Virus record (IMG/VR): IMGVR_UViG_2061766007_000180
Direction: 5' to 3' (one strand)
DNA: 64,000 bases
Source of the DNA: an uncultured virus (IMG/VR IMGVR_UViG_2061766007_000180)
Taxonomy: Duplodnaviria > Heunggongvirae > Uroviricota > Caudoviricetes
Under the pieces are notes generated by a model. It did no database searches, was not told where the DNA came from, and saw nothing but the letters and a program-made list of their open reading frames with translations. The position numbers were made by a program, and so were the translations under genes. Positions 1-45,715 of the stretch are shown piece by piece; the first letter of the stretch is position 1, and each line of letters starts with the position of its first letter.

Positions 1-1309
1 ATCTCCTTCTCGAACTTCGGCGGCTCCTCCGCCGTATGGACGATGAACGAAATGTGGTACTGTCCGGCGGCGTTCCTCGTGACGGTCGCCCGTCCGATCT
101 TTCCCTTCTTGACGTATCTCGAAAGGACGAACCTCAGACGGTTGTCGAGTTTCCTGGTCTTTATGAACTTCGGGATCTGGATCTTCTTCGCTTTGAAGTC
201 GATCTTCAGGTTTTCCGGAACCTCGAACGACTGGACATGGTCCTTCCTCGACTTGAACTTCGGAAACCCTCCCTGATGCCGGAAGAACCTCTGGAACNNN
301 NNNNNNNNNNNNNNNNNNNNNNNNNNNNNNNNNNNNNNNNNNNNNNNNNNNNNNNNNNNNNNNNNNNNNNNNNNNNNNNNNNNNNNNNNNNNNNNNNNNN
401 NNNNNNNNNNNNNNNNNNNNNNNNNNNNNNNNNNNNNNNNNNNNNNNNNNNNNNNNNNNNNNNNNNNNNNNNNNNNNNNNNNNNNNNNNNNNNNNNNNNN
501 NNNNNNNNNNNNNNNNNNNNNNNNNNNNNNNNNNNNNNNNNNNNNNNNNNNNNNNNNNNNNNNNNNNNNNNNNNNNNNNNNNNNNNNNNNNNNNNNNNNN
601 NNNNNNNNNNNNNNNNNNNNNNNNNNNNNNNNNNNNNNNNNNNNNNNNNNNNNNNNNNNNNNNNNNNNNNNNNNNNNNNNNNNNNNNNNNNNNNNNNNNN
701 NNNNNNNNNNNNNNNNNNNNNNNNNNNNNNNNNNNNNNNNNNNNNNNNNNNNNNNNNNNNNNNNNNNNNNNNNNNNNNNNNNNNNNNNNNNNNNNNNNNN
801 NNNNNNNNNNNNNNNNNNNNNNNNNNNNNNNNNNNNNNNNNNNNNNNNNNNNNNNNNNNNNNNNNNNNNNNNNNNNNNNNNNNNNNNNNNNNNNNNNNNN
901 NNNNNNNNNNNNNNNNNNNNNNNNNNNNNNNNNNNNNNNNNNNNNNNNNNNNNNNNNNNNNNNNNNNNNNNNNNNNNNNNNNNNNNNNNNNNNNNNNNCT
1001 GGGAGACGGGAAAGGTCTCGGAGGAAGAGGAGATCGGAGAGGATTTTCTCGGAAAGGTGAGGAAGATCACCGGAGAGGAAGAAAAATAAAATGACCAAGA
1101 AGAATCCAAAGCTTACGGAAGTTCCGGATTTCAATGGAACCCCAACCAGAGTCGGAGATAGGATCGTATACANNNNNNNNNNNNNNNNNNNNNNNNAACA
1201 GTTGTCGGGCTTTCCAAGGTGTTCGGAAAGACATGCGTAATAATCGAAGACGAATGCGGTTTTAAGAGCAAGCCAACTTCCCAGAGCTTTTACAGGATCG
1301 GGAGTGGAG

Positions 1310-3460: not shown

Positions 3461-3772
3461 CAGGTCGAATCAGGGTTCGATACTTGGAATTGGAAAGGGA
3501 AGGAAAGGATCCTGGAGGGGAGATCAAATGGCGGATAAATTCATGGAAGAAGACGAAAAGACAGCTTTGAAACTTCCTCCCCTTCCGGACGGGGTCAATC
3601 CGAAGGATCTCGTTCCGACAAAGACTGTCGGATTGAGGAATCAGTGAGTTATTTCGGTTGGAAAAAGCGGGAGAATAGTCAATAACGCGAATGGATTTTG
3701 GTACAAGACGGAGAATACCGCGAAAAACGTAATAGACATCTATAGAAATCAGACCTCGGATCGAAGTTTTGC

Positions 3773-3801
3773 TTGACACCGGAAGACTTTTCCTGTACAC
3801 T
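3773..3801 (+). promoter_or_regulatory. sigma70-type promoter, leaderless arrangement
   Basis: TTGACA(3773)-17 bp-TACACT(3796), ATG 6 nt downstream at 3808. Confidence 0.75.
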
Positions 3802-3807
3802 AATCCC

Positions 3808-5049
3808 ATGCAAAAGCTCCTGATCCAAGAATTCATCTCCTCCCATTCCGACTGGGAGAGGATCCTTCCGGAAAAGCCCTACTGCCTCAACATCCAGCGG
3901 GACTCCAAGTTCGGAAGGAATCTCGTCCTGTTCAAGTACAACCAGATCGAGTCGGATTTCTCGATTCCCCTAGTCCGGGAGTGCCGGGGGCTGATCCTCG
4001 ACGCGGACACGTTCGAGCCGGTATGTGTTCCGTTCTTCAAGTTTTTTAACTTTTCAGAAAATCTTGCAGACGAGATCGACTGGAAGACAGCGTGGGTGGG
4101 CATGAAAATTGACGGTTCATTGACGAAGGTCGTCCGGCTCGGAAACGACCTCCTCGTCTCCACGAACGGGACGATCGACGCGTACAAGGCTCCTATCCAG
4201 GACCAGATTGGATTCGTCGGAAAGACCTTCGGAGACCTCTTCGAGATGGCCGTCGCGAACGCCAAGGAAAGGTACGACAGGATCTCCCTCGAGAACCACT
4301 ACGCGAGGGAGGATTGGTATCTCGCTCCGATGGACTGGTTCAGGAACCTCCTCCAGGAGGGCTACACCTACATGTTCGAGCTGACCTCCCGGTACAACCA
4401 CATCGTCGTGAAGTTCGGGGATCCGGAGATCCACCTCATCGGGATCAGGGACAACCAGACTTTTCGGGAGATCGAGTTCTTCAACCATCCCCTCTCCCGG
4501 TTCTTCCACACTCCGGAGCTCTTCAGTCTTGGAACCCTGAAGGAGGTGGAGGAGGCCGCGGAGAAGCTCGACGCCAATCACGAGGGATTCGTGGTCTGCG
4601 ACGGGAATTTCCGCCGGGTGAAGGTGAAATCGTCGACGTATGTCGCCATCCACCACCTTCGCGGAGAGGGCGGGGCTCCCTCGTTCGAGCGCGGGATCGA
4701 GATCGTCCGGAAGAACGAGCTCGACGAGGTCCTGACGTACTTCCCCGAGTTCAGGGAGCACCTGGAGAAGATCAGGTCCGACCTTGACACCCTCGTCGAG
4801 AGGCTCGATTCCGGGTGGGATCTTCTCCGGAAAAACCTTTCCGGACTTCCCTCCCGGAAGGATCGGGCGCTGTTCATCATGTCGGACGAGTGCTTCGGAA
4901 AGAAGTTCTCCGGAGTCGGGTTCTCCCTCCTGGACGGAAAGGTCTCCTCCGCGAGGGAATGGGTCGAGAAGTGTCCGGCGAAGAATCTCGTGAAATACCT
5001 AGGATACAAGGAAAATAAACATGAAAATCAAGATCTCCAAGAAGAATAA
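3808..5049 (+). CDS. T4 Rnl1-like ATP-dependent RNA ligase
   Basis: ECRGLI, PFFKFFN, motif I KIDGSL, TYMFEL, motif IV EGFVV, motif V RVKVKS. Confidence 0.9.
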   Translation: MQKLLIQEFISSHSDWERILPEKPYCLNIQRDSKFGRNLVLFKYNQIESDFSIPLVRECRGLILDADTFEPVCVPFFKFFNFSENLADEIDWKTAWVGMKIDGSLTKVVRLGNDLLVSTNGTIDAYKAPIQDQIGFVGKTFGDLFEMAVANAKERYDRISLENHYAREDWYLAPMDWFRNLLQEGYTYMFELTSRYNHIVVKFGDPEIHLIGIRDNQTFREIEFFNHPLSRFFHTPELFSLGTLKEVEEAAEKLDANHEGFVVCDGNFRRVKVKSSTYVAIHHLRGEGGAPSFERGIEIVRKNELDEVLTYFPEFREHLEKIRSDLDTLVERLDSGWDLLRKNLSGLPSRKDRALFIMSDECFGKKFSGVGFSLLDGKVSSAREWVEKCPAKNLVKYLGYKENKHENQDLQEE

Positions 5050-7913: not shown

Positions 7914-8801
7914 TTGGACAGGAAATTTCTCATAATCGACTCGAAAAGCGGAATCTCTCCGGATGCGCTCAAGGCGAAGGTTCCGGAGTACGAGGTCGAC
8001 GTCGCGGTGGACAACTTTCCGGAAGGACCCGAGGGGGAGCTTTCCTCCCAGAACAGGATCCGGGACATCCTTTCCAGCGGGAAATACCAGAACTACGCGA
8101 TCGTCGCGAGACCCGGAAGCTTTCTCAGGAAGGCTTTTCCGAACAACACGATCGTCCTGGAGGGAACCGCGGAGGAAAAGCTCGGGAAGCATCTGGACTG
8201 GATCTTCTCGGACTTCGGGAAGGACCGGAGAAGGGACATGGTGAAGCGTTTTGTGATTTCGGACACGCATTTCTGCCACGCGAACATAATCCGGTACTGC
8301 AACCGTCCGTGGAACAGCGGAAAGGATGCGGAAGGAAACCTGATCGTCACTCCGGAGGATGTTGAGCGGATGGACGAGGACCTAGTCAGAAGGTGGAACG
8401 AGGTCGTCGGGAAGGACGACATCGTGTGGCATCTCGGAGACTTCGCCTTCGGAAAGAAGGAGAATGTCCAGAGACTCCTCTCGAGACTCAACGGAAAGGT
8501 GAACCTCGTGATGGGAAACCACGACCACCACAAGATCGGGTTCTACTACGAGGCCGGATTTCACCGGGTGTACGATCGTCCGGTCATAATCGACGGTTTT
8601 GTGATCCTTTCCCACGCCCCGATCCAGTGGGTGAAGGATGGATCGGTCTGGGCGAACCTGTACGGCCACGTCCATAACCAGGAGATGTACCGGCACTACA
8701 CGTCGAACACGTACAACTGCTGCGTCGAGGTGAATGACTACCGTCCGGTACCGTTCGAGGAAATCAAGGAAAAAATGGGTGGCTTTCGTGGGGACCGCTG
8801 A
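7914..8801 (+). CDS. Calcineurin-like metallophosphoesterase with N-terminal extension
   Basis: SDTHF.H, HLGD, GNHD, LSH.P, YGHVH motifs. Confidence 0.9.
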   Translation: MDRKFLIIDSKSGISPDALKAKVPEYEVDVAVDNFPEGPEGELSSQNRIRDILSSGKYQNYAIVARPGSFLRKAFPNNTIVLEGTAEEKLGKHLDWIFSDFGKDRRRDMVKRFVISDTHFCHANIIRYCNRPWNSGKDAEGNLIVTPEDVERMDEDLVRRWNEVVGKDDIVWHLGDFAFGKKENVQRLLSRLNGKVNLVMGNHDHHKIGFYYEAGFHRVYDRPVIIDGFVILSHAPIQWVKDGSVWANLYGHVHNQEMYRHYTSNTYNCCVEVNDYRPVPFEEIKEKMGGFRGDR

Positions 8802-17131: not shown

Positions 17132-17149
17132 AAGGTGTACACTATTCCC

Positions 17150-18124
17150 ATGAAGATTAGAATAATTTCAGACATCCACCGTAGCATCAACGAAAACTAT
17201 CCCCTCGAGCTCGAGGACAACTGCGACTACACCCTCATTGCCGGGGATCTCGGTCCGGAGTTCGAGAAGAACGCGGAATGGCTCCGGAAGAACGTGAAGC
17301 GCGGAGCCTTCGTTTCCGGAAACCACGACGCGTACGACAGGAAGATCACGATCGAGGACGCGAAGGAGTTCTACCACCGGGAGTTTCCCGAGGACTCCGA
17401 CATCACGTACTTCGACAGCTCGGTCGGAGTCCTCTCAAAGGAGATCGCTCCGGGAATCCTTCTCGTGGCAGACGTCCTCTATACGGACTACGCGCTTCCG
17501 GTCTCCGGAATGGACGAGGGACGTCCGCCGGACCAGATCGTCAAATCCAACATCCGCCGTGCCGAACCCAAGTTCCACGGAACGTACATGAACGATTTCA
17601 ACTACTACACGAGGGACGGAAGGTACGCGTCCGACTGGGAGAAGAACCACAACTACGACGACCGCTACCACATCACCCCACACCATTATCTTCGCCATTT
17701 CGAGAAGACGTTTGCCGAGATCACCCGGATAATCGAGGCAAATCCCGACAAGAGGGTGATCCTGATGACCCACCATTGCCTTTCTCCGAGATGCATCGGC
17801 GAGAAATTCTCGAAGGACGAGCTCAACGCCTCGTACGTCTCGGACAGGGAGAAGTGGATCGCGGACCATCCGAACCTCAAGCTTGTCGTTTCGGGACATG
17901 TCCACAACCGGAACACGTTCCATGTCGGAGATGCGCTCTATGTCCTGAATCCTCTCGGGTACGTTCCCTACGGAGAACACCTGGAGGGAGAGAACGGGGA
18001 GGCATGGACTCCGGATTGTTTCGTGGATACCGAGACATGGACCGTCTCGAAGGAACCATACCGGAACAAGGAGTGGGAAAAGAGACTCAAGAAGGACTTG
18101 GACGCGTGGTCCATGTTTGGCTAA
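17150..18124 (+). CDS. Metallophosphoesterase
   Basis: ISDIH, IAGD, GNHD, THH, GHVH motifs. Confidence 0.9.
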   Translation: MKIRIISDIHRSINENYPLELEDNCDYTLIAGDLGPEFEKNAEWLRKNVKRGAFVSGNHDAYDRKITIEDAKEFYHREFPEDSDITYFDSSVGVLSKEIAPGILLVADVLYTDYALPVSGMDEGRPPDQIVKSNIRRAEPKFHGTYMNDFNYYTRDGRYASDWEKNHNYDDRYHITPHHYLRHFEKTFAEITRIIEANPDKRVILMTHHCLSPRCIGEKFSKDELNASYVSDREKWIADHPNLKLVVSGHVHNRNTFHVGDALYVLNPLGYVPYGEHLEGENGEAWTPDCFVDTETWTVSKEPYRNKEWEKRLKKDLDAWSMFG

Positions 18125-38719: not shown

Positions 38720-39175
38720 TCAGGAAAGCCTCTCCGCGGCTTCCTTCCCCATCTTCTCGGCGTCGAAACGGTACTCCAGGCCGAATTCCTCGATCTGATC
38801 CGGAGTCCACGCTCTCTTCATGTCCCGATCGTAGCAGTTTCCGTCTTCCGGAAGATACGCGTGGACAAGGTCGTCCTCCCCGAGATACAGGAAGAAGGCG
38901 ACCGGAAGCTCCCAGTCTCCTCCTGCGGCGGAGTGGAATACCGGGATCTGCGTTCCCGGAAGAAGATGGAATCCGGCTGGGCCGCCGTAACCCGGCATGT
39001 CGAACGGATCGTTTCCCGGAAAAAGGAAGTTTTCCGTGTCGAAGTCGATCTCGGAAAGGTCGTCCGTTATCTGCCGCGGAATCTCGGAGCTCTCTCCGTC
39101 CGGAGAGAAGCTTTTCGAAATGGCTTCCTGGAGCCGGTCGGAACCGACGTCTTTCTTTGCCTTGACTATGCTCAT
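38720..39175 (-). CDS. Conserved phage hypothetical protein
   Basis: AGGDWE.PV.F..Y....AY.P..GN pattern; AAAGGA RBS. Confidence 0.7.
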   Translation of the reverse strand: MSIVKAKKDVGSDRLQEAISKSFSPDGESSEIPRQITDDLSEIDFDTENFLFPGNDPFDMPGYGGPAGFHLLPGTQIPVFHSAAGGDWELPVAFFLYLGEDDLVHAYLPEDGNCYDRDMKRAWTPDQIEEFGLEYRFDAEKMGKEAAERLS

Positions 39176-39197
39176 CTGGTGTTTTCCTTTGTAGAGA

Positions 39198-39272
39198 TGG
39201 TCACTCCGGTCGGACTCGAACCGACATGGGAGGGATTAGAAATCCCTTGCAAATCCTTTTTGCGACGGAGTG
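39198..39272 (-). tRNA. tRNA-Arg(TCT)
   Basis: CACTCCG/CGGAGTG-A-CCA; AGGGA-TTTCTAA-TCCCT; GTCGG-TTCGAGT-CCGAC. Confidence 0.9.
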
Positions 39273-39362
39273 GTGTCTTTCCCGATCTTGGGTGTGTTCA
39301 TGTCAAGAAGTATACAGGATCTTCCCGCGAATGTCAAGCGAAAACGGGCGGTCTGGATCAGA

Positions 39363-39692
39363 TGGTGGAGAAGACGGGAGTCGAACCCGTTTCCGGAACG
39401 GTCCTTCGGAACGCTTTCTACGACAGTTTCCTACGGAAGTTTAACCTCTCACCCCAATAGGAATCGGATGACAGGCGAGAATCCTCGTTTGAGATCCTTC
39501 GGGCGAGGAGACGAGACCCTCGGAAATGCCAGATAAAGAGTGCCCTACTCGGACCTTATCTGGCGTGTGGTTCTTTCGGGTGGCTCATGCGGCCATTCTG
39601 TAGCTGTTGCCAGTTACTGTTCTTGAACTTACGGCTTCCGCCGTGTCGCTGCGCTCGTGGGACTTGGTTCCGTCGAATGCCGGAACTTCCCC
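39363..39692 (-). ncRNA. ssrA: tmRNA, predicted tag (A)GNSYRMAA
   Basis: GGGGAAG...ATTCGACG 5' end; GGTTCGACTCCCGTCTTCTCCACCA 3' end; G3:U70; TAACT-GGC resume; tag ORF 39611-39585. Confidence 0.92.
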
Positions 39693-39705
39693 TCAAAATC
39701 ATTGG

Positions 39706-40686
39706 TTATTGATGATCAAACCACCATAAAAATTGTTTGATCTTAAACTTCATCCTTTTCTTTCCAACATTATTGTTTATGTTGTTCCAGGCAATTCTAT
39801 AAATGATATATCCATTTTCACGGAGTATTCTATCACGTTTTCTGTCATTTTGTATCCTGTCTGAATATGTATGTTGTTTTCCGTCAATTTCAAGATTTAT
39901 AAGTTTTCCATTCTTTTTTATCAAGAAATCTAAGAAATACCCAAATACTGGAGTCTCACGATTGAATGAAATTCCATTATTATCTAGAACCCTAGTCCAA
40001 AATTTCTCTGGATATGATGTAATATTACGAGATATCCAGCCTTTGTGAGTTCCAGTTAGAACTCTTTGTTGTTGGGCATCTCTCAATCGTTGGCGTGTTT
40101 TTTCTGAAATAATACGTTTCCCAGATTTTGTGTATAACTGATAATGATGTTTGTTTAGTCTGTCACAACATTCGTAACAGTATGCTTTGTTTAGTGTTTT
40201 AATCCAGATTGTTTTTCCACAAGAGGAACATTTAGACATATATGGACGAGGTGATGTTTTTTGTTTGCTGTTTTTTCTGTCTTTTCTAGAATATCCCCAT
40301 TTTTTCAAATAGCATTTGTCACAAAGGGTTTTGTGGGTTGAACATCCAACGTGTATAAATTCTTTTCCACATTCTGGGCAAATGTGCTTTCTGGGTTTTG
40401 ATGTGGATAATGACGTTTTTATTTTTGATTCTTTTGTGCGAATATGTGAATTTGCATGTTCTCGACAACAGAATTGTGGTATTCTATAGTTCATTTTAAA
40501 GTGGCGGATTTTTAGCCTCTTTATAAATTTCTTTCCACATTTCTTACAAATTATTGTAAAATTTTCATATGCTTCATCTGGATCTTTTTTTAAAAATTTT
40601 TTTCTGTGTTCTGGTATATGTTCTTCTGAACATCTCTCGTTTTCTTCTGAATTGGGGAGTTTTAATGAAACGTCTTCATCTATCAT
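39706..40686 (-). CDS. Zn-finger / DUF559 (Vsr-like) homing endonuclease
   Basis: Several CxxC; SYPEK; YFLDF...LEIDGKQH...DRKRD..L...GY...RI.W; very AT-rich. Confidence 0.85.
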   Translation of the reverse strand: MIDEDVSLKLPNSEENERCSEEHIPEHRKKFLKKDPDEAYENFTIICKKCGKKFIKRLKIRHFKMNYRIPQFCCREHANSHIRTKESKIKTSLSTSKPRKHICPECGKEFIHVGCSTHKTLCDKCYLKKWGYSRKDRKNSKQKTSPRPYMSKCSSCGKTIWIKTLNKAYCYECCDRLNKHHYQLYTKSGKRIISEKTRQRLRDAQQQRVLTGTHKGWISRNITSYPEKFWTRVLDNNGISFNRETPVFGYFLDFLIKKNGKLINLEIDGKQHTYSDRIQNDRKRDRILRENGYIIYRIAWNNINNNVGKKRMKFKIKQFLWWFDHQ

Positions 40687-40808
40687 GGTTTTACCTTTAG
40701 TTTTATGTCGTTGTTCCACCAACGACATTTATACTTACAGTATTGTAAGAAAATCTGCTTCCATTCTTATGTTGGGTGGAACCATGATAGAATGGAAGCA
40801 GGGAAAAA

Positions 40809-40880
40809 TCGGGGAACCCGGAAGTCGCACCGGGGCCTTCTCGTCCCAAGCGAGGCGTGCTGCTCTTATACCATTCCCCG
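40809..40880 (-). tRNA. tRNA-Pro(TGG), CCA not encoded
   Basis: CGGGGAA/TTCCCCG-A; loop CTTGGGA; T-loop TGCGACT. Confidence 0.85.
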
Positions 40881-40902
40881 TAATCGTATCGAATTTTTCA
40901 AA

Positions 40903-41037
40903 GGTTGCGCCGGTCCGGATTTCCGGAGACAGAGCTGGCCAGATTGCATCTCCCCGGCATCTTTCCGGAAAGGACGGTTCCGGATGCGCTTTCCGGAAAG
41001 GTCTTCCTCGGAACGTTCTGGTTTGAACTACGGCAAA
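40903..41037 (-). ncRNA. tRNA-derived RNA with expanded arms
   Basis: GCCG-TA-GTTC-AAACCA-GAAC D-arm start; ends TCCGG-AAAT-CCGGA-CCGGCGCAACC. Confidence 0.4.
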
Positions 41038-41113
41038 TGGCGACCCGGCCAGAACTCGAATCTGGAAATAATCCTTAGGGGGGATTCGTGATATCCGATT
41101 TCACCACAGGGTC
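41038..41113 (-). tRNA. tRNA-Arg(CCT), C33
   Basis: GACCCTG/CCGGGTC-G-CCA; AATCC-CCCCTAA-GGATT. Confidence 0.85.
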
Positions 41114-41181
41114 TTTCGAAAGGGTGACATGTGGCAAGTTTACGGAAAGTTGCCGGATGTCGTGTTTTGAGACCGGAAGAT

Positions 41182-41264
41182 TTGCAAGGGATAGATTCGA
41201 ACTATCGAAGCCCGAAGGCAACGGGTTTACAGCCCGTCCTCGTTGACCACTTGAGTACCTTGCA
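41182..41264 (-). tRNA. tRNA-Tyr(GTA)
   Basis: TGCAAGG/CCTTGCA-A; ACGGG-CTGTAAA-CCCGT; long variable arm. Confidence 0.9.
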
Positions 41265-41273
41265 TTGAAAAAG

Positions 41274-41399
41274 GAAGGCGAGACGTAACATAGGCGCTCT
41301 AAGTGCTGAGCTACGGACCCGGAAATGGCGGGTCCGGCAGGAATTCCACCTGCGACCTCCTCCTTAACAAGGGATTAAGAGGAACGTCTTTGTGCCTTC
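41274..41399 (-). ncRNA. Circularly permuted tRNA-Asn(GTT)-like gene
   Basis: 3' half (41372-41326, ends CGGACCC-G-CCA) precedes 5' half (41320-41292, GGGTCCG...); complementary leader and trailer. Confidence 0.65.
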
Positions 41400-41403
41400 G
41401 AAA

Positions 41404-41541
41404 TGGAGCAAGATGCCGAACTCGCATCGGCGTAAACTACCTTTGGTCGTGGAACTTGGATTTGAACCAGGATTTCCTCGTGGTGTTCTACTTGAACTAT
41501 TCCACGGGAAGGGTAGCGCATGACTTCTCTGCCAACCTTGC
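41404..41541 (-). tRNA. tRNA-Gly(TCC) interrupted at 36/37 by a tRNA-like insert
   Basis: GCAAGGT/ATCTTGC-T-CCA; CTACC-CTTCC|insert|AA-GGTAG. Confidence 0.85.
41444..41506 (-). ncRNA. 63-nt tRNA-like element lacking a normal anticodon arm, nested in tRNA-Gly
   Basis: CGTGGAA/TTCCACG-A-CCA; GTTC/GAAC D stem; stub CC-ACGA-GG; TTCAAAT T-loop. Confidence 0.85.
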
Positions 41542-41650
41542 GTTTTGAAACCGTTGAACTATCGGCCCGTTGAAAAAGCAGATGCCGCAACCGGATTTCG
41601 CCAACAACGGCATCGGATTCTCTGCCTACAACATGGTAGGAGAGACTAAA

Positions 41651-41673
41651 TGGTACCTAGACTGGGACTTGAA
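41651..41673 (-). tRNA. 3' fragment of the split tRNA-Lys(TTT)
   Basis: TTCAAGT-CCCAG-TCTAGGT-A-CCA pairs (6/7) with ACCTTGA at 43284-43278. Confidence 0.7.
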
Positions 41674-43169
41674 TGTACTCATGAACATAAACTCCGTAAA
41701 GAAGTTTCGGAAATGCCAACGTTGGACTTTCTGTTCCTGAGCTGAAACCACCTCTCGTCTCCTCGAAGTGGAACCCTGTACATCATTCCAGAGTTTTTGA
41801 AGAAGGAATGCATCTCCTTCCAGGATCCGAAGCTCTCTTCCGTCCCAAATTCTTCCAACGACTTGGAGACGGCCTCGGCGAACCTCGGCATCCTGGGGAA
41901 TACGACGTTCCCCAAGCTTGAAATATTCCTGTCTACAAACTGCCTTCTGAACTCGTACCCCCTGCGGCCGATCTCGATCGACGCGTTGACCATGTCGGGA
42001 GCCCCGTGCCTCCTGAAGAGGATGTTTCCCACGAACGACGAGTAGGCCGCCGCGATCTCCTGAAAGTGGATTCCGGCTATCACACATCTTTTTCTCAGAT
42101 TGTCGACGAGCTTCTTCCTGAGCCACCTGTTGTTCCGGATCTTGTTCTGGTATTTCCCAAGCCCGGAATTCCCCGACCTCATGTCGAGGCTTTCCGCGGC
42201 GAAGGTCTCACACTGGAAGTACCTGGCCTTGTCGACGAGGTTTTTCGCGACCTCGAACGTCTCATGCCGCAACTTGTCGGCGGCGTATTTCCTTTTCTTG
42301 TCGGACGACGGGATCCCAAGCCTCCTCAAGGCCCATTCCCGGTCGTTCAGGTTCTTGAACGAATATACGCCGCTCTTCACGATCCGGTAGTCGTTCTCAT
42401 CCTTCCAGTCGACGACCGACCACCCAACGTAGTTCGGGTTCATGTCTATCGCCATGACCCGACTCTTGATCTGCTCGGTTCGGCGGACGCCGAACACGTC
42501 CTTCTCGTCGAATGTGATGTAGAGATGGTCCAACCCGAGCCTGAATGTCACCGGAGCCCGTTTTCCGACCTGGATCTCATGGAGTTTCTTCAGGATCTTC
42601 CTGATGTTCTTCCGGTTTCCGTATTCGAGCTTTAGGTCGAACCTGACGTCCCTGGAGGGCTGGAACAGGATATTGTCAAGGTCCTTCTGGATCCGGAAGT
42701 TCCTGTTTCCGTGATGTTCCCGGTCTCCGATGCAGTAGAACGGACTCAACCTCGCAAGCCTGAATTCCTCTCTCGTGATCCTCTTCCTGCATCTGGAAAC
42801 GAAGTTCTTCTTCCCTCCGAAGACGACCTTGTCGTTTAATGTGATGAGCTGAGTTGCTTCCTTGAACGCACAATGGAGAGTCCATTTCGAGATCATATGA
42901 AGGTTTTGAAGTTCTTCTGCCAGTTTCGTGGTTTCCTTCTCTCCAAGACCTTCCTTGACCCGATTGTAGACAAAATGCAGACAGTTGGAATATTGGCGAA
43001 GATGGGAAACCACGATTTCCTTCTCTTCGTCTGTCTCAACTGAATATCTGAGTTTTATCGTTTGCATTAGTCTTGTTGTTATTTACTACGGAAAGGTTCT
43101 GGAACTTTAATTGATTGTGTAATATTGTACACAATTTATGATTTTTAAGGTACTTTATTATTTTAAAAC
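41674..43169 (-). mobile_element. TnpB-only element inserted in tRNA-Lys
   Basis: Bounded by the two parts of tRNA-Lys; no transposase; AT-rich left end. Confidence 0.7.
41679..43067 (-). CDS. tnpB: TnpB-family RNA-guided endonuclease (no Zn-finger)
   Basis: RuvC-I AIDMNP, RuvC-II AAESL, AYSSFVGN, RuvC-III PDMVNASIEI. Confidence 0.85.
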   Translation of the reverse strand: MQTIKLRYSVETDEEKEIVVSHLRQYSNCLHFVYNRVKEGLGEKETTKLAEELQNLHMISKWTLHCAFKEATQLITLNDKVVFGGKKNFVSRCRKRITREEFRLARLSPFYCIGDREHHGNRNFRIQKDLDNILFQPSRDVRFDLKLEYGNRKNIRKILKKLHEIQVGKRAPVTFRLGLDHLYITFDEKDVFGVRRTEQIKSRVMAIDMNPNYVGWSVVDWKDENDYRIVKSGVYSFKNLNDREWALRRLGIPSSDKKRKYAADKLRHETFEVAKNLVDKARYFQCETFAAESLDMRSGNSGLGKYQNKIRNNRWLRKKLVDNLRKRCVIAGIHFQEIAAAYSSFVGNILFRRHGAPDMVNASIEIGRRGYEFRRQFVDRNISSLGNVVFPRMPRFAEAVSKSLEEFGTEESFGSWKEMHSFFKNSGMMYRVPLRGDERWFQLRNRKSNVGISETSLRSLCS

Positions 43170-43284
43170 AACCCACAGATTATGGACGTCACTGGGTGAA
43201 TTGCACACCCGCCTCCATTACTGGTGTTCTCTTTAGAAACTAAGTGACGAAAGTCTGTTGCTCTGCCAATTGAGCTATCAAGGT
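43170..43284 (-). tRNA. 5' part of tRNA-Lys(TTT), interrupted at 35/36 by a tRNA-like insert and then by the TnpB element
   Basis: ACCTTGA-TA-GCTC...GAGC-A-ACAGA-CTTT|insert|TAA-TCTGT-GGGTT. Confidence 0.8.
43183..43249 (-). ncRNA. 67-nt tRNA-like element with GNRA-capped stub instead of an anticodon arm, nested in tRNA-Lys
   Basis: CGTCACT/AGTGACG-T-CCA; CCA-GTAA-TGG stub; GGGTG-TGCAATT-CACCC. Confidence 0.85.
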
Positions 43285-43293
43285 GTTGAAGGG

Positions 43294-43464
43294 CTCGTGT
43301 GGGAAGACTCGAACTTCCAAACCTTTCGGCGGCAGATTATGGAGGAATGAAATGGATTCGAACCATTACCCCATGCCGAGGACCTAGTTAACCTCCAGAC
43401 AATGTATGCAACCTCTACACCATCATTCCACAGTCTGCTGCGGCTACCATTTCGCCACACACGA
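43294..43464 (-). tRNA. tRNA-Asn(GTT), long variable arm, interrupted at 35/36 by a tRNA-like insert
   Basis: TCGTGTG/CACACGA-G; GCAGA-CTGT|insert|TAA-TCTGC; GGAAG-TTCGAGT-CTTCC. Confidence 0.85.
43340..43429 (-). ncRNA. 90-nt tRNA-like element with elongated aberrant anticodon arm, nested in tRNA-Asn
   Basis: GGAATGA/TCATTCC-T-CCA; AATGG-TTCGAAT-CCATT. Confidence 0.85.
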
Positions 43465-43587
43465 TCAAAGCGCGAGGGTTTTTCTGGGGAGCCGTAACCT
43501 GAAACGGTCCTTGAGGCGAATTGCCCCCTGCCGGACTGAACGCCGCATGCTGCGCAATCCCAACCCACAAAGCAGTTCAAGAAGAAA

Positions 43588-43739
43588 TGGAGCGAGGGTC
43601 CCGATTCGGATTTCGTACGCTAGCATCCTACTTTCCGCGTCCTATGACAGGCCGGGCACGTGTTTTGGTCCCGAATCCGCCTCCGGCTCGACTAACCCGG
43701 CTCGCAACGGACTGGCTGTCCGTACGTCCGGCCCCTCGC
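43588..43739 (-). ncRNA. 152-nt RNA closed by a tRNA-like acceptor stem with U-CCA
   Basis: GCGAGGG/CCCTCGC-T-CCA; internal GATTCGG/CCGAATC; no T arm. Confidence 0.55.
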
Positions 43740-43764
43740 AATGACACACCGGAGTTGAGAAAAA

Positions 43765-43923
43765 GGAGCGGATCCGCCGACTGGAACCCCTTTCGAGGCC
43801 CCGAAGAGCTTTCTCCGGATGTTGGGTATTCCATTTTCCGGGAAGAGTCTTCTTCCTCGGAGTTTCTTTCGGGTGTCCCTATATCGGTGGAACACATCAG
43901 GTTTGACTCCCTGTCGGATCTGC
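43765..43923 (-). ncRNA. Structured ncRNA of unknown class (weakly 6S-like)
   Basis: GCAGATCCG/CGGATCCGC terminal stem; CCTGATGTGTTC motif. Confidence 0.4.
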
Positions 43924-43934
43924 TGAGATGAAAC

Positions 43935-44009
43935 TGGAGCTGGGTGGGAATTCCGAGATCCCATCGTCTTTCTTACAAGGAAAGTGCCTATCCGTTCGGC
44001 CAACCCAGC
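43935..44009 (-). tRNA. tRNA-Thr(TGT), aberrant T-loop
   Basis: GCTGGGT/ACCCAGC-T-CCA; CTTTC-CTTGTAA-GAAAG. Confidence 0.85.
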
Positions 44010-44013
44010 AAAA

Positions 44014-44088
44014 TGGTTCCGACGGAGGGTATCGATCCCACCTGACCCGTCTTAAAAGGACGGTACCTATCCTCTCGGTCACGTCGGA
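44014..44088 (-). tRNA. tRNA-Lys(TTT), uninterrupted
   Basis: TCCGACG/CGTCGGA-A-CCA; CCGTC-CTTTTAA-GACGG. Confidence 0.88.
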
Positions 44089-44094
44089 TCAAAT

Positions 44095-44169
44095 CGTTCC
44101 TGGAGGGACTTGAACCCCCAAAATCCTCCGTGAAAGGGAGGTGGCTATAACCAGTTTGCCTACAGGAAC
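44095..44169 (-). tRNA. tRNA-Glu(TTC), CCA not encoded
   Basis: GTTCCTG/CAGGAAC-G; CCTCC-CTTTCAC-GGAGG. Confidence 0.9.
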
Positions 44170-44341
44170 AAAGACGTTTCGGAACGCACCGGCCCGTACA
44201 CTAAACGGCGTCACGCGTCGGATCCCTCGGCTATGTTAGGCTCTTGAACGGCACGTCTGCTTCCGGAAATCGACCGTCGTCGGAACCGGAAATCGCCGAA
44301 CACCTCAAGCGGATCCGCTCTTCTGTTAGTATTCCATGAAA

Positions 44342-44417
44342 TGGTAGCGGGAGTAGGGCTCGAACCTACGACCTCCGGGGTATGAACCCGACAAGCTGCC
44401 AACTGCTCCATCCCGCT
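44342..44417 (-). tRNA. Initiator-type tRNA-Met(CAT)
   Basis: AGCGGGA/TCCCGCT-A-CCA; TGGAGCAG D arm; three G-C pairs closing loop TTCATAC. Confidence 0.9.
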
Positions 44418-44424
44418 GAAATCG

Positions 44425-44964
44425 TCATTGGTAATTCGGATCCGCCTGTATCACCCCAAACCGGTGGAAGTATTCCAACGGTCTCATTTTTCTGACTTTG
44501 GTCTCTCCCTTGCGCGGCACGTAGAATCCCCACTTGTGCCGCGGCCGTCCTTCAAGAAGAAGAGTCCACGCTCCGAATTCCGAGATGTTCAGAAAATGTC
44601 TTTGCTCGGCCTTTGAGAACCATATCGACCGTCCCAGGTTCCATGATGGCTTGTGCGTTTCCGAACCAAACAGGCCAATGACCTCGCAGAACCTCTTGTT
44701 GTTCCCAGACGGCGGCAGCTCCGGATCCAGAGGCACCGTGTTCCAGTACCGGCCCCAGATCACCACGCTTATGAAATTCGCAGCATGGTCGTGGAAATAC
44801 CTTCTGTCGTCCGATCTCAGCCAATGGTGGAGTCGTATTGTGAATCCGAATATCACCAATGTCCATCTGACGAGGTATGGATTTCTCGGATCCCCCAGTT
44901 TCTCCGCCCATCTCACCTGAAACAACTTTCCGAACGGTCTAGTGTCCGACGAACCTGTTGACAT
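44425..44964 (-). CDS. Conserved phage protein, cupin-like
   Basis: PYLVRW...IRLHH.LRSD...HDH...F.S; WGF; AAAGGAG RBS. Confidence 0.75.
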   Translation of the reverse strand: MSTGSSDTRPFGKLFQVRWAEKLGDPRNPYLVRWTLVIFGFTIRLHHWLRSDDRRYFHDHAANFISVVIWGRYWNTVPLDPELPPSGNNKRFCEVIGLFGSETHKPSWNLGRSIWFSKAEQRHFLNISEFGAWTLLLEGRPRHKWGFYVPRKGETKVRKMRPLEYFHRFGVIQADPNYQ

Positions 44965-44989
44965 GACAGTCTCCTTTGTGGTTGTTAAA

Positions 44990-45167
44990 TGGTCAGGTTG
45001 GTTGGATTCGAACCTCAAGGGATCCGATCAACGATCCCCTGGAGCCAGCGTGGGGGTTTCCACATCTTAAAGCTCTCACCATCCTCTCCGCGTAAACTCG
45101 CGTTCGTTATCCATGGATTCGAACATTTGAGCATTGGAGCGTGCTTCCCTATTACACCATCAACCCG
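44990..45167 (-). ncRNA. tRNA-like RNA with about 100-nt insertion in place of the anticodon arm
   Basis: CGGGTTG/CAACCTG-A-CCA; TGGTGTAATAGGGAAGCAC D arm; GGTTCGAATCC T arm. Confidence 0.6.
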
Positions 45168-45181
45168 TTGGATTTAAAGTT

Positions 45182-45254
45182 TGGACACGTGCGGATTCGA
45201 ACCGCGAACTTCTCGGTGCAAACGAGATGTGATACCAGATTTCACCACCGGCCC
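45182..45254 (-). tRNA. tRNA-Ala(TGC), acceptor mismatches
   Basis: TCTCG-TTTGCAC-CGAGA; G3:U70; GCGG-TTCGAAT-CCGC. Confidence 0.75.
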
Positions 45255-45650
45255 TTGAAATCACAGGCCGTCTCCGCTCAGGCGAGGGGTAGAGACTTGG
45301 GAGACGGCCGGTGGGGCTTTCGCCCCGATCTATTCGTAAATGAATAGGAACCCCATGTGCCATGCTTAAATCGAGAAGTCTCCGGAGCCGCTTTTCCGCC
45401 TGCCAAAGAAAGGAGTAAACAAAACAGGCCGTTCCACCTGGGGAGAGGTCCACCTCCCGGACGGAGACAAGGCGGAGGATAGGGGGAGAAAGGAAAGAAA
45501 ACCCCAGGCCCTCCGCACATCGTGACACCCGAAAAAGATAGGCCCGCCAAACAGGCCCTTCCACTTTTCGGGTCCGCGCTCGGCCAAACACCTGTTTAAG
45601 GTCGCCGAGCCGACCTCCGGAGAATTCCACTCCGGAAAATTCAAACCGCC

Positions 45651-45665
45651 CAGTTTTCAAAGATC
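45651..45665 (-). promoter_or_regulatory. rrn-type boxA antitermination signal
   Basis: GATCTTTGAAAACTG about 20 nt downstream of the -10 box. Confidence 0.65.
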
Positions 45666-45686
45666 TTGTTTCCTGCCAACGCCTAT

Positions 45687-45715
45687 AGTGTACAACTTTC
45701 ACCGTCGGCAGTCAA
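45687..45715 (-). promoter_or_regulatory. sigma70-type promoter of the RNA operon
   Basis: TTGACT-17 bp-TACACT. Confidence 0.75.

What the first reader, a model, noticed from the sequence alone, without database searches (positions are those of the whole stretch)
41404..41541. Case 1: tRNA-Gly(TCC) with a 63-nt anticodon-less tRNA mimic at 36/37
The minus strand reads GCAAGGT-TG-GCAGAGAAGTCATGC-G-CTACC-CTTCC | CGTGGAA-TA-GTTCAAGTAGAAC-A-CCACGAGG-AAAT-CCTGGTTCAAATCCAAG-TTCCACG-A-CCA | AA-GGTAG-TTTAC-GCCGATGCGAGTTCGGC-ATCTTGC-T-CCA. The boundaries cannot slide. The spliced product is 75 nt and I see no other Gly tRNA in the window. The insert's C1-G72/A73 resembles tRNA-Pro, but its anticodon arm is a 2-bp stub.
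Basis: seen in the sequence. Interest (0 to 1): 0.9.

Follow-up and report, generated by a model that had tools for sequence, protein, structure and literature searches.

The report
tRNA-shaped intron in phage tRNA-Gly
A glycine tRNA gene of a large rumen phage is split in its anticodon loop by a small tRNA look-alike that has no anticodon, a layout that suggests the cell's ordinary tRNA-trimming enzymes plus a phage RNA ligase could splice it, which remains untested.

Summary
On the minus strand, 41541-41404 is a complete tRNA-Gly(TCC). It is interrupted between anticodon-loop positions 36 and 37 by a 63-nt tRNA-like unit, 41506-41444. This unit keeps the acceptor stem, D arm, T arm and CCA, but its anticodon arm is only 2 bp plus a 4-nt loop.

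Two more nests of the same build lie 1.7-2 kb upstream. In all 3 of 3, removing exactly "+1 to CCA" restores a 7-nt anticodon loop. The nested Gly gene is also present in contigs from two other rumen studies.

The window encodes a T4 Rnl1-type RNA ligase (3769-5049).

- **Best reading (about 0.45):** a tRNA-shaped intron. RNase P cuts its 5' end, an unidentified nuclease cuts after its CCA, and the ligase seals the resulting 3'-OH and 5'-phosphate exon ends. No step is shown.
- **Main rival (about 0.3):** the Gly gene is dead and only the mimic, or nothing, is made. One of the three nests has a broken outer gene.

Nearest precedent: the unexplained tRNA introns of Lak megaphages (Devoto 2019). 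This scan has noted similar inserts before on other DNA (e1-5959538). I class this as a new variant of a known but unexplained kind.

The parts
41507..41541 (-). 5' exon of the outer tRNA-Gly(TCC): acceptor 5' strand, D arm, anticodon stem 5' strand and loop bases 32-36 (ends CTTCC)
   Evidence: Sequence; 35-nt piece. ARAGORN calls tRNA-Gly(tcc) on the exons joined in a script.
41444..41506 (-). 63-nt tRNA-like insert (mini1): 7-bp acceptor stem (C1-G72), 4-bp D stem with a 5-nt loop, anticodon arm reduced to 2 bp plus a 4-nt loop, T arm, A73 and an encoded CCA
   Evidence: Rfam RF00005 39.8 bits at 41506-41447, with alignment. The fold keeps the acceptor and D stems.
41404..41443 (-). 3' exon of the outer tRNA-Gly: loop bases 37-38 (AA), anticodon stem 3' strand, variable loop, T arm (T loop TGCGAGT), acceptor 3' strand, T73 and CCA
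   Evidence: The free-standing tRNA-Pro has the same unusual T-G-C start of the T loop.
3769..5049 (+). T4 Rnl1-type RNA ligase, the candidate sealing enzyme
   Evidence: PF09511 E 3.2e-14, 53.8 bits (cut-off 28.3). phrog_562 E 2.3e-46. T4 RNA ligase 1 structures 2c5u, 5tt6 and 9do4 at E about 1e-16, with KIDGSL aligned to T4's KEDGSL.
43292..43464 (-). Second nest. The outer long-variable-arm tRNA-Asn(GTT) has exons 43464-43430 and 43339-43292. A 90-nt tRNA-like unit, 43429-43340, ends in CCA and sits between loop positions 35 and 36.
   Evidence: ARAGORN on the spliced flanks gives tRNA-Asn(gtt), 83 nt. Aligned with the long tRNA-Asn of relatives (L034 5299-5386, L023 1716-1800), the gap falls exactly at CTGT | insert | TAAT. 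The inner unit scores 39.4 bits in Rfam, with 27 nt where the model expects 11. ARAGORN's anticodon call for it is unstable: Ser gga, Arg tct.
43169..43284 (-). Third nest. mini2 (43249-43183, 67 nt, same build as mini1, ends T-CCA) sits between CTTT and TAA of a Lys-type anticodon arm. The outer gene has its acceptor 5' strand, D arm, anticodon arm and variable loop here, then breaks off.
   Evidence: Rfam 30.7 bits at 43249-43186, with alignment showing a 3-bp stub plus 4-nt loop; sequence.
41651..41673 (-). Probable 3' remnant of the outer gene of the third nest (T loop, T-stem 3' strand, acceptor 3' strand matching 6 of 7, A73, CCA). It is separated from the rest by the 462-aa ORF 43067-41679.
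   Evidence: Sequence read by eye. A contig of run X5 joins 43258 to 41673, but the flank is only 26 nt, so this is weak.

Best explanation
This is a tRNA-Gly(UCC) gene carrying a tRNA-shaped intron. The intron is a tRNA mimic that keeps the parts tRNA end-processing enzymes recognise (acceptor stem, T arm, D arm, discriminator and CCA). It has lost the part needed for decoding.

Proposed pathway:

1. The 138-nt precursor folds as one cloverleaf inside the anticodon loop of another.
2. RNase P cuts at the 5' end of the mimic, leaving the 5' exon with a 3'-OH after C36.
3. A nuclease that respects CCA, like the Thermotoga-type RNase Z, cuts directly after the mimic's CCA. This leaves the 3' exon with a 5'-phosphate at A37.
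4. The two exons stay paired as a nicked tRNA. These ends need no healing, and the phage's Rnl1-type ligase seals them into a 75-nt tRNA-Gly.
5. The mimic is released as a small tRNA-like RNA with mature ends.

What is shown: the anatomy, the exact boundaries in three nests, the ligase gene, and the presence of the nested gene in other samples. What is inferred: every enzymatic step. The enzyme for step 3 is the weakest link.
For: 1. **Exact boundaries, 3 of 3.** In the Gly, Asn and Lys-type nests the insert is exactly a tRNA-like unit from +1 to CCA. Its removal leaves a 7-nt loop with T33 and A37: CTTCC + AA, CTGT + TAA, CTTT + TAA. The insertion points differ (36/37, 35/36, 35/36). That fits cut sites set by the insert's own fold rather than by the host loop.
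2. **The inserts look like processing handles.** All three have good acceptor and T arms but no usable anticodon arm.
3. **The outer Gly is complete.** It has all its stems, T73, and G1-C72 and C2-G71. That these are bacterial Gly identity marks is recalled, not tested. Its loop is the same as in the intact tRNA-Gly(TCC) of relatives L002 and L035, and close in L012, L014, L023 and L029.
4. **The second outer gene matches an unusual type.** It aligns with the long-arm tRNA-Asn of relatives, with the gap exactly at the insert.
5. **A suitable ligase is encoded.** An Rnl1-type ligase with the motif I lysine context lies in the window. T4 Rnl1 joins 3'-OH and 5'-PO4 ends in broken tRNA anticodon loops and, with Pnkp, splices yeast tRNA halves (PMC1920235, passages read).
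6. **An enzyme of the needed kind exists.** An RNase Z that cuts right after an encoded CCA is known (T. maritima; PMC3161902, one passage).
7. **There is demand for this tRNA.** GGA is 421 of 814 Gly codons in 37 ORFs of the window, and no other Gly tRNA is present.
8. **Independent assemblies hold it.** The whole nested gene is in contigs from two other studies, without indels: X8 record 13 covers 41399-41541 with 2 other letters, and X9 record 20 covers 41280-41550 with 4.
9. **Interrupted tRNA genes are common in related phages.** In relatives, Rfam scores 47-55 bits over 110-134 nt. Two tRNA-like inserts occur in L025.
Against: - No RNA evidence of any kind.
- The nuclease for the cut after CCA is unidentified. 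Pfam scans of 82 window ORFs (16, 66) found no RNase Z, splicing endonuclease, RtcB, polynucleotide kinase or reverse transcriptase. The window is only part of the phage, and the host is unknown.
- The third nest's outer gene lacks its T-stem 5' strand and is separated from its 3' end by a 1.4-kb ORF. Nesting therefore exists without a working outer gene in at least 1 of 3 cases.
- The cluster is a mosaic in which whole tRNA genes come and go between strains. Recent insertion into a gene that has not yet decayed would look the same.
- No allele of this Gly gene without the insert was seen, and no divergent copy, so there is no covariation or purifying-selection test.
- In relatives the tRNA-like inserts carry a 22-28-nt leader, and the implied 3' cut is 1-4 nt past the discriminator. 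The simple RNase P rule does not explain this.
- A phage fragment that has an Rnl1 relative and 25 tRNA hits (24 over the cut-off) shows no nests, so the ligase is not tied to nesting.
- CCA is also encoded in about 5 of 9 free-standing tRNAs, so CCA in 3 of 3 inserts is weak evidence.
Confidence: 0.45

Rival explanations
1. Dead host gene. A tRNA-like element landed in the tRNA-Gly gene and inactivated it. RNase P and 3' trimming release only the mimic, which may have a role of its own, and the Gly halves are degraded. The intact look of the outer gene only reflects a recent event.
For: - One of the three nests has an outer gene that is certainly broken.
- The cluster is highly mosaic between strains and holds selfish-looking genes: an AT-rich DUF559/Vsr-like endonuclease ORF at 39706-40728, and a 462-aa ORF at 41679-43067.
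- Anticodon-less tRNA-like RNAs also exist free-standing and conserved in this clade, at 45167-44990 and its relatives. Such mimics can therefore be products in their own right.
Against: - It gives no reason why the inserted DNA should be exactly +1 to CCA and restore a 7-nt loop in 3 of 3 cases.
- Two outer genes have no defect in any stem.
- The phage would be left without a tRNA for its commonest Gly codon in this window.
- The nested gene persists unchanged in length in three studies.
Confidence: 0.3
2. Mobile tRNA-like cassette acting on DNA, or through an RNA copy. The mimic is a small mobile unit that targets anticodon loops of tRNA genes, as this scan proposed for nested tRNA genes of CPR bacteria. 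Alternatively, it is a mature mimic RNA that a ligase joined into a broken tRNA and that was then copied back into DNA. Whether the outer tRNA still works is a separate question.
For: - mini1 and mini2 share a build and short identical stretches: both start CGT, and both have TAGTT and GAACACCA. They sit in two different host loops.
- Exact mature-tRNA boundaries are what an RNA-mediated origin would give.
- Earlier scan notes describe repeated nesting in other lineages.
Against: - No inverted repeats, stalk or target duplication flank the inserts.
- The inner units do not replace the host's anticodon, unlike the CPR cases.
- No reverse transcriptase was found among 82 ORFs scanned.
- No further copies of the mimic family were found in IMG/VR by two degenerate patterns or in the held loci.
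Confidence: 0.15
3. The unspliced 138-nt double cloverleaf is itself the product, for example a decoy or scaffold that presents two tRNA-like bodies.
For: The nested fold is the minimum-energy structure and is more stable than shuffles. A permuted tRNA-like or YrlA-like element lies 50 nt downstream, so this cluster does hold non-decoding tRNA mimics.
Against: The mimic has an exposed 5' end context and an encoded ACCA. That is what bacterial RNase P is known to use (recalled), so it is hard to see it escaping cleavage. This reading also gives no reason for a perfect Gly anticodon loop split 5 + 2.
Confidence: 0.05

Closest known systems
'Enigmatic' tRNA introns of Lak megaphages (Devoto et al. 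2019, Nat Microbiol, PMC6784885; passages read)
   Same: A phage tRNA gene is interrupted in the anticodon region. One intron, in tRNA-Thr(TGT), 'itself may encode a tRNA'. The mechanism is unexplained.
   Different: - The phage lineage differs: about 54% G+C and bovine gut here, against 26% G+C Prevotella phages.
- Here the insert is nothing but the tRNA mimic, from +1 to CCA, with no extra hairpin or leader.
- The mimic has no anticodon arm.
- An Rnl1-type ligase lies in the same window.
- I did not compare sequences with the Lak introns, and I did not open that paper's supplementary table 6.
Phage T4 tRNA restriction-repair (PrrC break, Pnkp healing, Rnl1 sealing) (PMC1920235, passages read)
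   Same: The same ligase family acts on the same substrate geometry: a tRNA nicked in its anticodon loop, with 3'-OH and 5'-phosphate ends.
   Different: In T4 the break is damage inflicted by a host nuclease and needs end healing. Here the break would be programmed by the gene's own layout, and RNase P/Z-type cuts would need no healing.
Archaeal and eukaryal tRNA introns (bulge-helix-bulge, EndA/Sen endonuclease, RtcB or Trl1 ligase) (PMC4090602 seen in a search listing and abstract only)
   Same: A protein-dependent route would remove an anticodon-loop insert and then ligate the exons.
   Different: Both splice sites face one internal loop between two coaxial helices, so there is no bulge-helix-bulge. 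The position is 36/37, not 37/38. No EndA-like ORF was found in the window. The ends expected here are 3'-OH and 5'-P, not 2',3'-cyclic phosphate and 5'-OH.
Self-splicing group I introns in bacterial and phage tRNA anticodon loops
   Same: The location: the anticodon loop of a bacterial-type tRNA gene.
   Different: 63 nt is far too short. No Rfam intron or ribozyme family hits the region even at E up to 1-10.
tRNA-like processing handles such as MALAT1 mascRNA and the tRNA punctuation of mitochondrial transcripts (recalled, no call)
   Same: A tRNA-shaped element recruits RNase P and RNase Z to cut a longer RNA at defined points.
   Different: In those systems the flanking pieces are not ligated back together into a functional RNA.
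Nested 'Russian-doll' tRNA genes of CPR bacteria
   Same: A tRNA-shaped unit sits inside the anticodon loop of another tRNA gene.
   Different: There the inner gene is a full tRNA of the same anticodon, often on a hairpin stalk or between inverted repeats, and is read as gene replacement. Here the inner unit cannot decode and has no stalk or repeats.

Membership tests
tRNA (outer gene, tRNA-Gly UCC) | Cloverleaf with 7-bp acceptor, D arm, 5-bp anticodon stem, 7-nt loop with T33 and a purine at 37, and a T arm | tested here: met
   ARAGORN calls tRNA-Gly(tcc), 75 nt, on the joined exons. The D stem is only 3 bp, the D loop lacks GG, and the T loop starts T-G-C, as in the window's tRNA-Pro.
tRNA (outer gene, tRNA-Gly UCC) | A mature, aminoacylated 75-nt RNA exists | not testable with these tools
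   No RNA run holding the sequence was listed.
tRNA (inner 63-nt unit) | An anticodon stem-loop able to present an anticodon | tested here: not met
   The Rfam alignment shows 2 bp plus 4 nt in place of the arm. ARAGORN finds no tRNA in it. It is a tRNA mimic, not a tRNA.
Bulge-helix-bulge (archaeal/eukaryal) tRNA intron | Two 3-nt bulges separated by a 4-bp helix at the splice sites | tested here: not met
   In the predicted fold both junctions lie in one internal loop (5 nt and 6 nt), between the outer anticodon stem and the inner acceptor stem.
Bulge-helix-bulge (archaeal/eukaryal) tRNA intron | A splicing endonuclease of the EndA/Sen family is available | tested here: inconclusive
   None among 82 window ORFs scanned with Pfam. 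The rest of the phage and the host were not seen.
Group I intron | Conserved P1-P9 core of about 200 nt or more, recognised by Rfam | tested here: not met
   The insert is 63 nt. There is no such Rfam match at E up to 10 over 38900-45700 or up to 1 over 41380-43480.
Lak-type phage tRNA intron holding a tRNA-like unit | A phage tRNA gene with an anticodon-region insert that itself scores as tRNA-like | tested here: met
   The family is defined by description only (PMC6784885).
Lak-type phage tRNA intron holding a tRNA-like unit | Sequence kinship with the Lak introns | not tested
T4 Rnl1-type RNA ligase (ORF 3769-5049) | Match to the RNA_lig_T4_1 family above its cut-off, and to solved T4 Rnl1 | tested here: met
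   PF09511 at 53.8 bits against a 28.3 cut-off. 2c5u, 5tt6 and 9do4 at E about 1e-16 over residues 46-142 and 189-373.
T4 Rnl1-type RNA ligase (ORF 3769-5049) | Motif I lysine (KxDG) | tested here: met
   KIDGSL aligns with T4's KEDGSL. That this lysine is the adenylated residue is recalled.
T4 Rnl1-type RNA ligase (ORF 3769-5049) | Seals tRNA anticodon-loop nicks | not testable with these tools
   Needs an enzyme assay.
CPR-type nested replacement tRNA cassette | The inner gene is a complete tRNA of the same anticodon, flanked by a stalk or inverted repeat | tested here: not met
   The inner unit has no anticodon, and no flanking repeat is present.

The most novel reading that the evidence does not exclude
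tRNA-shaped introns would be a third route of tRNA splicing, beside self-splicing group I introns and the bulge-helix-bulge endonuclease route. The intron carries no catalytic or protein-specific signal. It simply imitates a tRNA, so that universal RNase P and a CCA-respecting 3' nuclease excise it, and a phage Rnl1 ligase rejoins the exons. That would give phage RNA ligase 1 a housekeeping job beyond repair. It would make some phage tRNAs mature only in cells that express the phage ligase. It would also explain the Lak megaphage introns. The released anticodon-less mimic, with mature 5'-phosphate and CCA ends, could further serve as a decoy for host factors that act on tRNA acceptor ends.
Probability: 0.3. 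Interest if true: 0.9.

Novelty: new variant of a known kind. Interest (0 to 1): 0.72.

Why it matters
Introns in phage tRNA genes that themselves look like tRNAs were reported in 2019 and left unexplained. This locus is the simplest form I have seen: the insert is only a tRNA body from its first base to CCA. That gives an exact prediction of both cut sites and of the end chemistry, and a matching ligase lies in the same stretch of DNA.

The idea can be tested with three purified components and one 138-nt transcript. If it holds, it adds a new way of splicing tRNAs, gives a normal cellular role to the T4 Rnl1 family, and shows how a phage could keep a tRNA private to infected cells. If it fails, the locus still documents a family of anticodon-less tRNA mimics in large rumen phages.

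Tried and rejected
- **Whole genome:** none is held for this window.
- **Phage GenBank records:** blastn of 41200-43500 matched only the tRNA-Tyr gene (22 records, at most 3% of the query).
- **RNA evidence:** no RNA holder was listed among 19 runs.
- **Exact 22-nt stretch of the mimic in IMG/VR:** 0 matches.
- **Two degenerate patterns for the mini1/mini2 family in IMG/VR:** 9 and 1 matches. By eye all lack the tRNA build, and 5 of the 9 are one conserved stretch that looks protein-coding.
- **18-nt 3'-junction word in 596 Gb of prokaryote genomes:** 6 matches in unrelated MAGs and genomes, none with a tRNA.
- **Metagenome relatives:** 39 loci were found through the 197-aa ORF. None carries the nested Gly or a CCA-ended leaderless nest.
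- **Rnl1 family search in relatives' records:** only 1 of 5 handles was held. It had no match, and the control rang in 0 of 14 genomes, so the result is uninformative.
- **tblastn of the ligase against all held loci:** it found only the two loci fetched with it.
- **tRNA regions of an Rnl1-bearing IMG/VR fragment (G003) and of G001:** 377 candidates, 0 nests.
- **Comparison of L025 with L037, and L014 with L037:** 0 and 3 differences, too few for a covariation test.
- **ARAGORN in intron mode:** it calls the second outer gene His(gtg) by sliding the cut one base. I rejected this because the long-arm relatives are Asn(gtt) and the alignment gap is exact.
- **Two apparent nests in L034 and one in L022 from the looser scan:** these were ordinary neighbouring tRNAs.
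- **Anticodon TCA (suppressor) product from a cut pair one base left:** I kept this only as a remote possibility. ORFs of the window read well in code 11.
- **Literature searches** for a description or mechanism of nested or tRNA-like phage tRNA introns:
  - 'nested tRNA' + phage: 0 papers.
  - tRNA intron, bacteriophage, RNA ligase, RNase P, anticodon loop: 48 papers, none on this among the 20 listed.
  - 'tRNA introns' + 'huge phages': 2 papers, both unrelated.
  - tRNA, intron, megaphage, RNase P: 2 held, 1 listed, unrelated.
- **X5 contig:** it appears to lack the whole nested Gly and the whole nested Asn (joints 41410-41646 and 43283-43461). These joints have flanks of only 28 and 26 nt at 85% likeness, so I treat them as hints only.

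Full report
**What is there**

The window is part of a large phage-like genome. It carries a T4-type RNA ligase, a NADAR protein, homing-endonuclease-like ORFs and many ORFs without family. The runs that hold it are recorded as bovine gut metagenomes.

On the minus strand between 45254 and 39198 lies a cluster of tRNA genes with a tmRNA. The finding sits inside it.

- ARAGORN sees no tRNA in the unspliced 138 nt. On the two outer pieces joined in a script it calls a 75-nt tRNA-Gly(tcc) with full stems, T73 and CCA.
- Rfam's tRNA model matches the 63-nt insert (41506-41447, 39.8 bits, gathering score 29).
- The Rfam alignment shows what kind of object the insert is. It has a 7-bp acceptor stem, U8-A9, a 4-bp D stem and a T arm with a standard GTTCAAATCC loop region. 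Only 2 bp and a 4-nt loop stand where the anticodon arm should be.
- The minimum-energy fold of the 138 nt is one cloverleaf inside the other (z -2.77).
- No other Gly tRNA is in the window.
- A blind control supports this. I cut out every acceptor-plus-T-arm candidate, with up to 40 nt of leader and 4 nt of tail, and ran ARAGORN on the joined flanks. That found 5 places in the real DNA (window plus 40 loci) and none in the reversed DNA.

**It is not alone**

Two further nests lie upstream.

- *Second nest.* A 90-nt tRNA-like unit, 43429-43340, ends in CCA. It has a perfect acceptor and T arm, a poor D and anticodon region, and an unstable anticodon call. It sits in the loop of a tRNA with a long variable arm. 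Exact removal gives tRNA-Asn(gtt). Relatives have just such long tRNA-Asn genes, and the alignment gap falls exactly at CTGT | insert | TAAT.
- *Third nest.* mini2 (43249-43183) has the same build as the Gly insert: it starts CGT, shares a GAACACCA stretch, has a 3-bp stub with a 4-nt loop, and ends T-CCA. It sits between CTTT and TAA of a Lys-type anticodon arm.

In 3 of 3 nests the insert is exactly "+1 to CCA", and what remains is a 7-nt loop with T33 and A37. The insertion points differ: 36/37 in one case and 35/36 in two.

**What argues for a working, spliced gene**

- The exactness of the boundaries is hard to get from random DNA insertion. It is what selection for RNA processing, or an RNA-level origin, would give.
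- The inserts retain what RNase P and tRNA 3'-end enzymes recognise and have lost what decoding needs. That these parts suffice for RNase P is recalled knowledge.
- RNase P leaves a 3'-OH on the upstream piece, and an RNase Z-type cut leaves a 5'-phosphate on the downstream piece (recalled). Those are the ends that T4 Rnl1 joins in broken tRNA anticodon loops. T4 Rnl1 can also complete tRNA splicing of yeast halves (PMC1920235, passages).
- The window encodes such a ligase at 3769-5049. The evidence is PF09511 above its cut-off, phrog_562 at E 2e-46, and T4 Rnl1 structures at E 1e-16 with the KxDG motif aligned.
- An RNase Z that cuts directly after an encoded CCA is known from Thermotoga (PMC3161902, one passage).
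- GGA is the commonest Gly codon in the window's ORFs (421 of 814).
- The whole nested gene is present, without indels, in contigs of two other studies (X8: 2 other letters in 143; X9: 4 in 271). This also excludes an assembly artefact.
- Related phages carry many tRNA genes with inserts that Rfam still scores at 47-55 bits over 110-134 nt. These include two tRNA-like inserts in L025 and a set with a shared hairpin plus ACAGCA motif. Interrupted tRNA genes are thus a habit of this group.

**What argues against**

- There is no RNA evidence.
- The nuclease for the cut after CCA is unknown. Nothing like RNase Z, EndA, RtcB, Pnkp or a reverse transcriptase appeared among 82 window ORFs.
- The outer gene of the third nest is broken. 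After its variable loop comes an AT-rich leader and a 462-aa ORF (43067-41679). Only then comes a stretch that fits its T loop, T-stem 3' strand, acceptor 3' strand (6 of 7) and CCA (41673-41651). The T-stem 5' strand is missing.
- Contigs of other samples show that this part of the cluster differs between strains:
  - X9 has about 143 letters in place of 43257-41551.
  - X8 has 1416 letters in place of 1716.
  - X5 and X7 continue after 43258 with a different, uninterrupted anticodon arm.
- Whole tRNA genes, nested or not, seem to be gained and lost. A recent insertion into a still-intact gene cannot be excluded.
- In L025 the tRNA-like inserts have a 22-28-nt leader with a small hairpin, and the 3' cut that gives a sensible anticodon lies 1-4 nt after the discriminator. 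The simple rule that fits this window does not cover them.
- A phage fragment with an Rnl1 relative and 25 tRNA hits has no nests.

**Comparison with what is known**

- *Closest published case.* The set of 'enigmatic' introns in Lak megaphage tRNAs is closest. One of them 'itself may encode a tRNA' (Devoto et al. 2019, PMC6784885, passages read). This scan has noted such inserts before in a Lak-type phage (e1-5959538), and nested tRNA genes in CPR bacteria (e1-857210 and others).
- *How this locus differs from Lak.* The lineage and base composition differ. The insert is only the mimic, with CCA and no leader. A matching ligase lies nearby.
- *Not a group I intron.* It is 63 nt and has no Rfam match.
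- *Not a bulge-helix-bulge intron.* Both junctions face one internal loop.
- *Not a CPR-type replacement cassette.* The inner unit cannot decode and has no flanking repeats.
- *Literature.* My four searches found no description of a mechanism.

**Verdict**

The structure is real, non-random and recurrent.

- Best reading: a tRNA-shaped intron removed by tRNA end-processing enzymes and sealed by the phage Rnl1-type ligase (0.45).
- Main rival: a dead Gly gene hosting a tRNA mimic (0.3).
- Others: a mobile cassette (0.15) and an unspliced composite RNA (0.05).

It is a new variant of a known but unexplained kind, and it is directly testable.

Noticed in passing
window 43292-43464 (-): Second nest. 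A 90-nt tRNA-like unit ending in CCA (43429-43340) sits between positions 35 and 36 of a long-variable-arm tRNA-Asn(GTT). Relatives L034 and L023 have the uninterrupted long tRNA-Asn.
   Followed up: yes
window 43169-43284 and 41651-41673 (-): Third nest. mini2 sits in a Lys-type anticodon arm whose outer gene is chimeric and broken. In other strains the same 5' part continues as an uninterrupted tRNA with a different anticodon arm, which I read as Thr TGT from a 30-letter loose end.
   Followed up: partly
window 41679-43067 (-): A 462-aa ORF with an AT-rich leader sits inside the broken tRNA gene. It has no Pfam, PHROG or PDB sequence match. The nearest ESM Atlas clusters are mostly viral hypothetical proteins that carry PF27229 (SSO2105_N) in 11-59% of members. 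By eye it has a TnpB-like RuvC pattern without a zinc ribbon; this is recalled and untested. It is absent or replaced in contigs of X9 and X8.
   Followed up: partly
window 41291-41361 (-), probably 41290-41385: A circularly permuted tRNA-like element: T arm, acceptor 3' strand, G-CCA, a 5-nt loop, acceptor 5' strand, then D arm. It is closed by a 6-bp outer stem and preceded by a 9-bp hairpin. There is a weak Rfam YrlA (Y RNA-like) match of 24.7 bits against a gathering score of 69. No Ro/Rsr gene was seen in the window.
   Followed up: partly
window 44990-45167 (-); relatives L001 9379-9533, L004 955-1114, L005 2187-2360, L007 1532-1712, L008 1106-1311, L011 3871-4058, L017 1881-2085, L023 9838-10023, L024 1597-1782: A conserved tRNA-like RNA lies directly upstream of the 197-aa ORF (phrog_4786) in the window and the relatives examined. 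It has Pro-like ends (C1-G72, A73, often CCA), a D arm and a GGTTCGAATCC T arm. A 76-110-nt variable middle replaces the anticodon arm. ARAGORN in intron mode gives it inconsistent names. My alignment cut off the window's 3' end.
   Followed up: partly
L012 9290-9534, L015 6098-6346, L023 9406-9648, L024 957-1408, L025 8154-8274, L029 5354-5468: Relatives carry a family of 26-50-nt inserts in or beside the anticodon stem of several tRNAs. They share a small hairpin followed by ACAGCA and are often bracketed by ACGTAT ... ATACGT. Rfam still scores the whole genes at 47-55 bits.
   Followed up: no
window 39706-40728 (-): An AT-rich (about 38% G+C) 340-aa ORF lies between tRNA-Pro and the tmRNA. 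It has cysteine-rich repeats and a C-terminal DUF559/Vsr-like endonuclease domain (PF04480, E 5e-12). It looks like a free-standing homing endonuclease in a tRNA cluster. Contigs of X5 and X8 join across it with other or unknown sequence.
   Followed up: partly
window 1-1000: The first kilobase has 16% G+C against about 54% elsewhere. A 352-aa ORF (36-1094) there has no Pfam match.
   Followed up: no
window 45550-45615 (-): A sub-threshold Rfam match to the Pistol ribozyme: 26.9 bits against a gathering score of 34.5, E 0.08.
   Followed up: no
window 7914-8801 and 17135-18124 (+): Two calcineurin-like metallophosphoesterase ORFs lie on the same strand as the RNA ligase. The 3'-end-healing domain of Clostridium Pnkp belongs to this superfamily (PMC1920235), so they are possible RNA-repair partners.
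   Followed up: no
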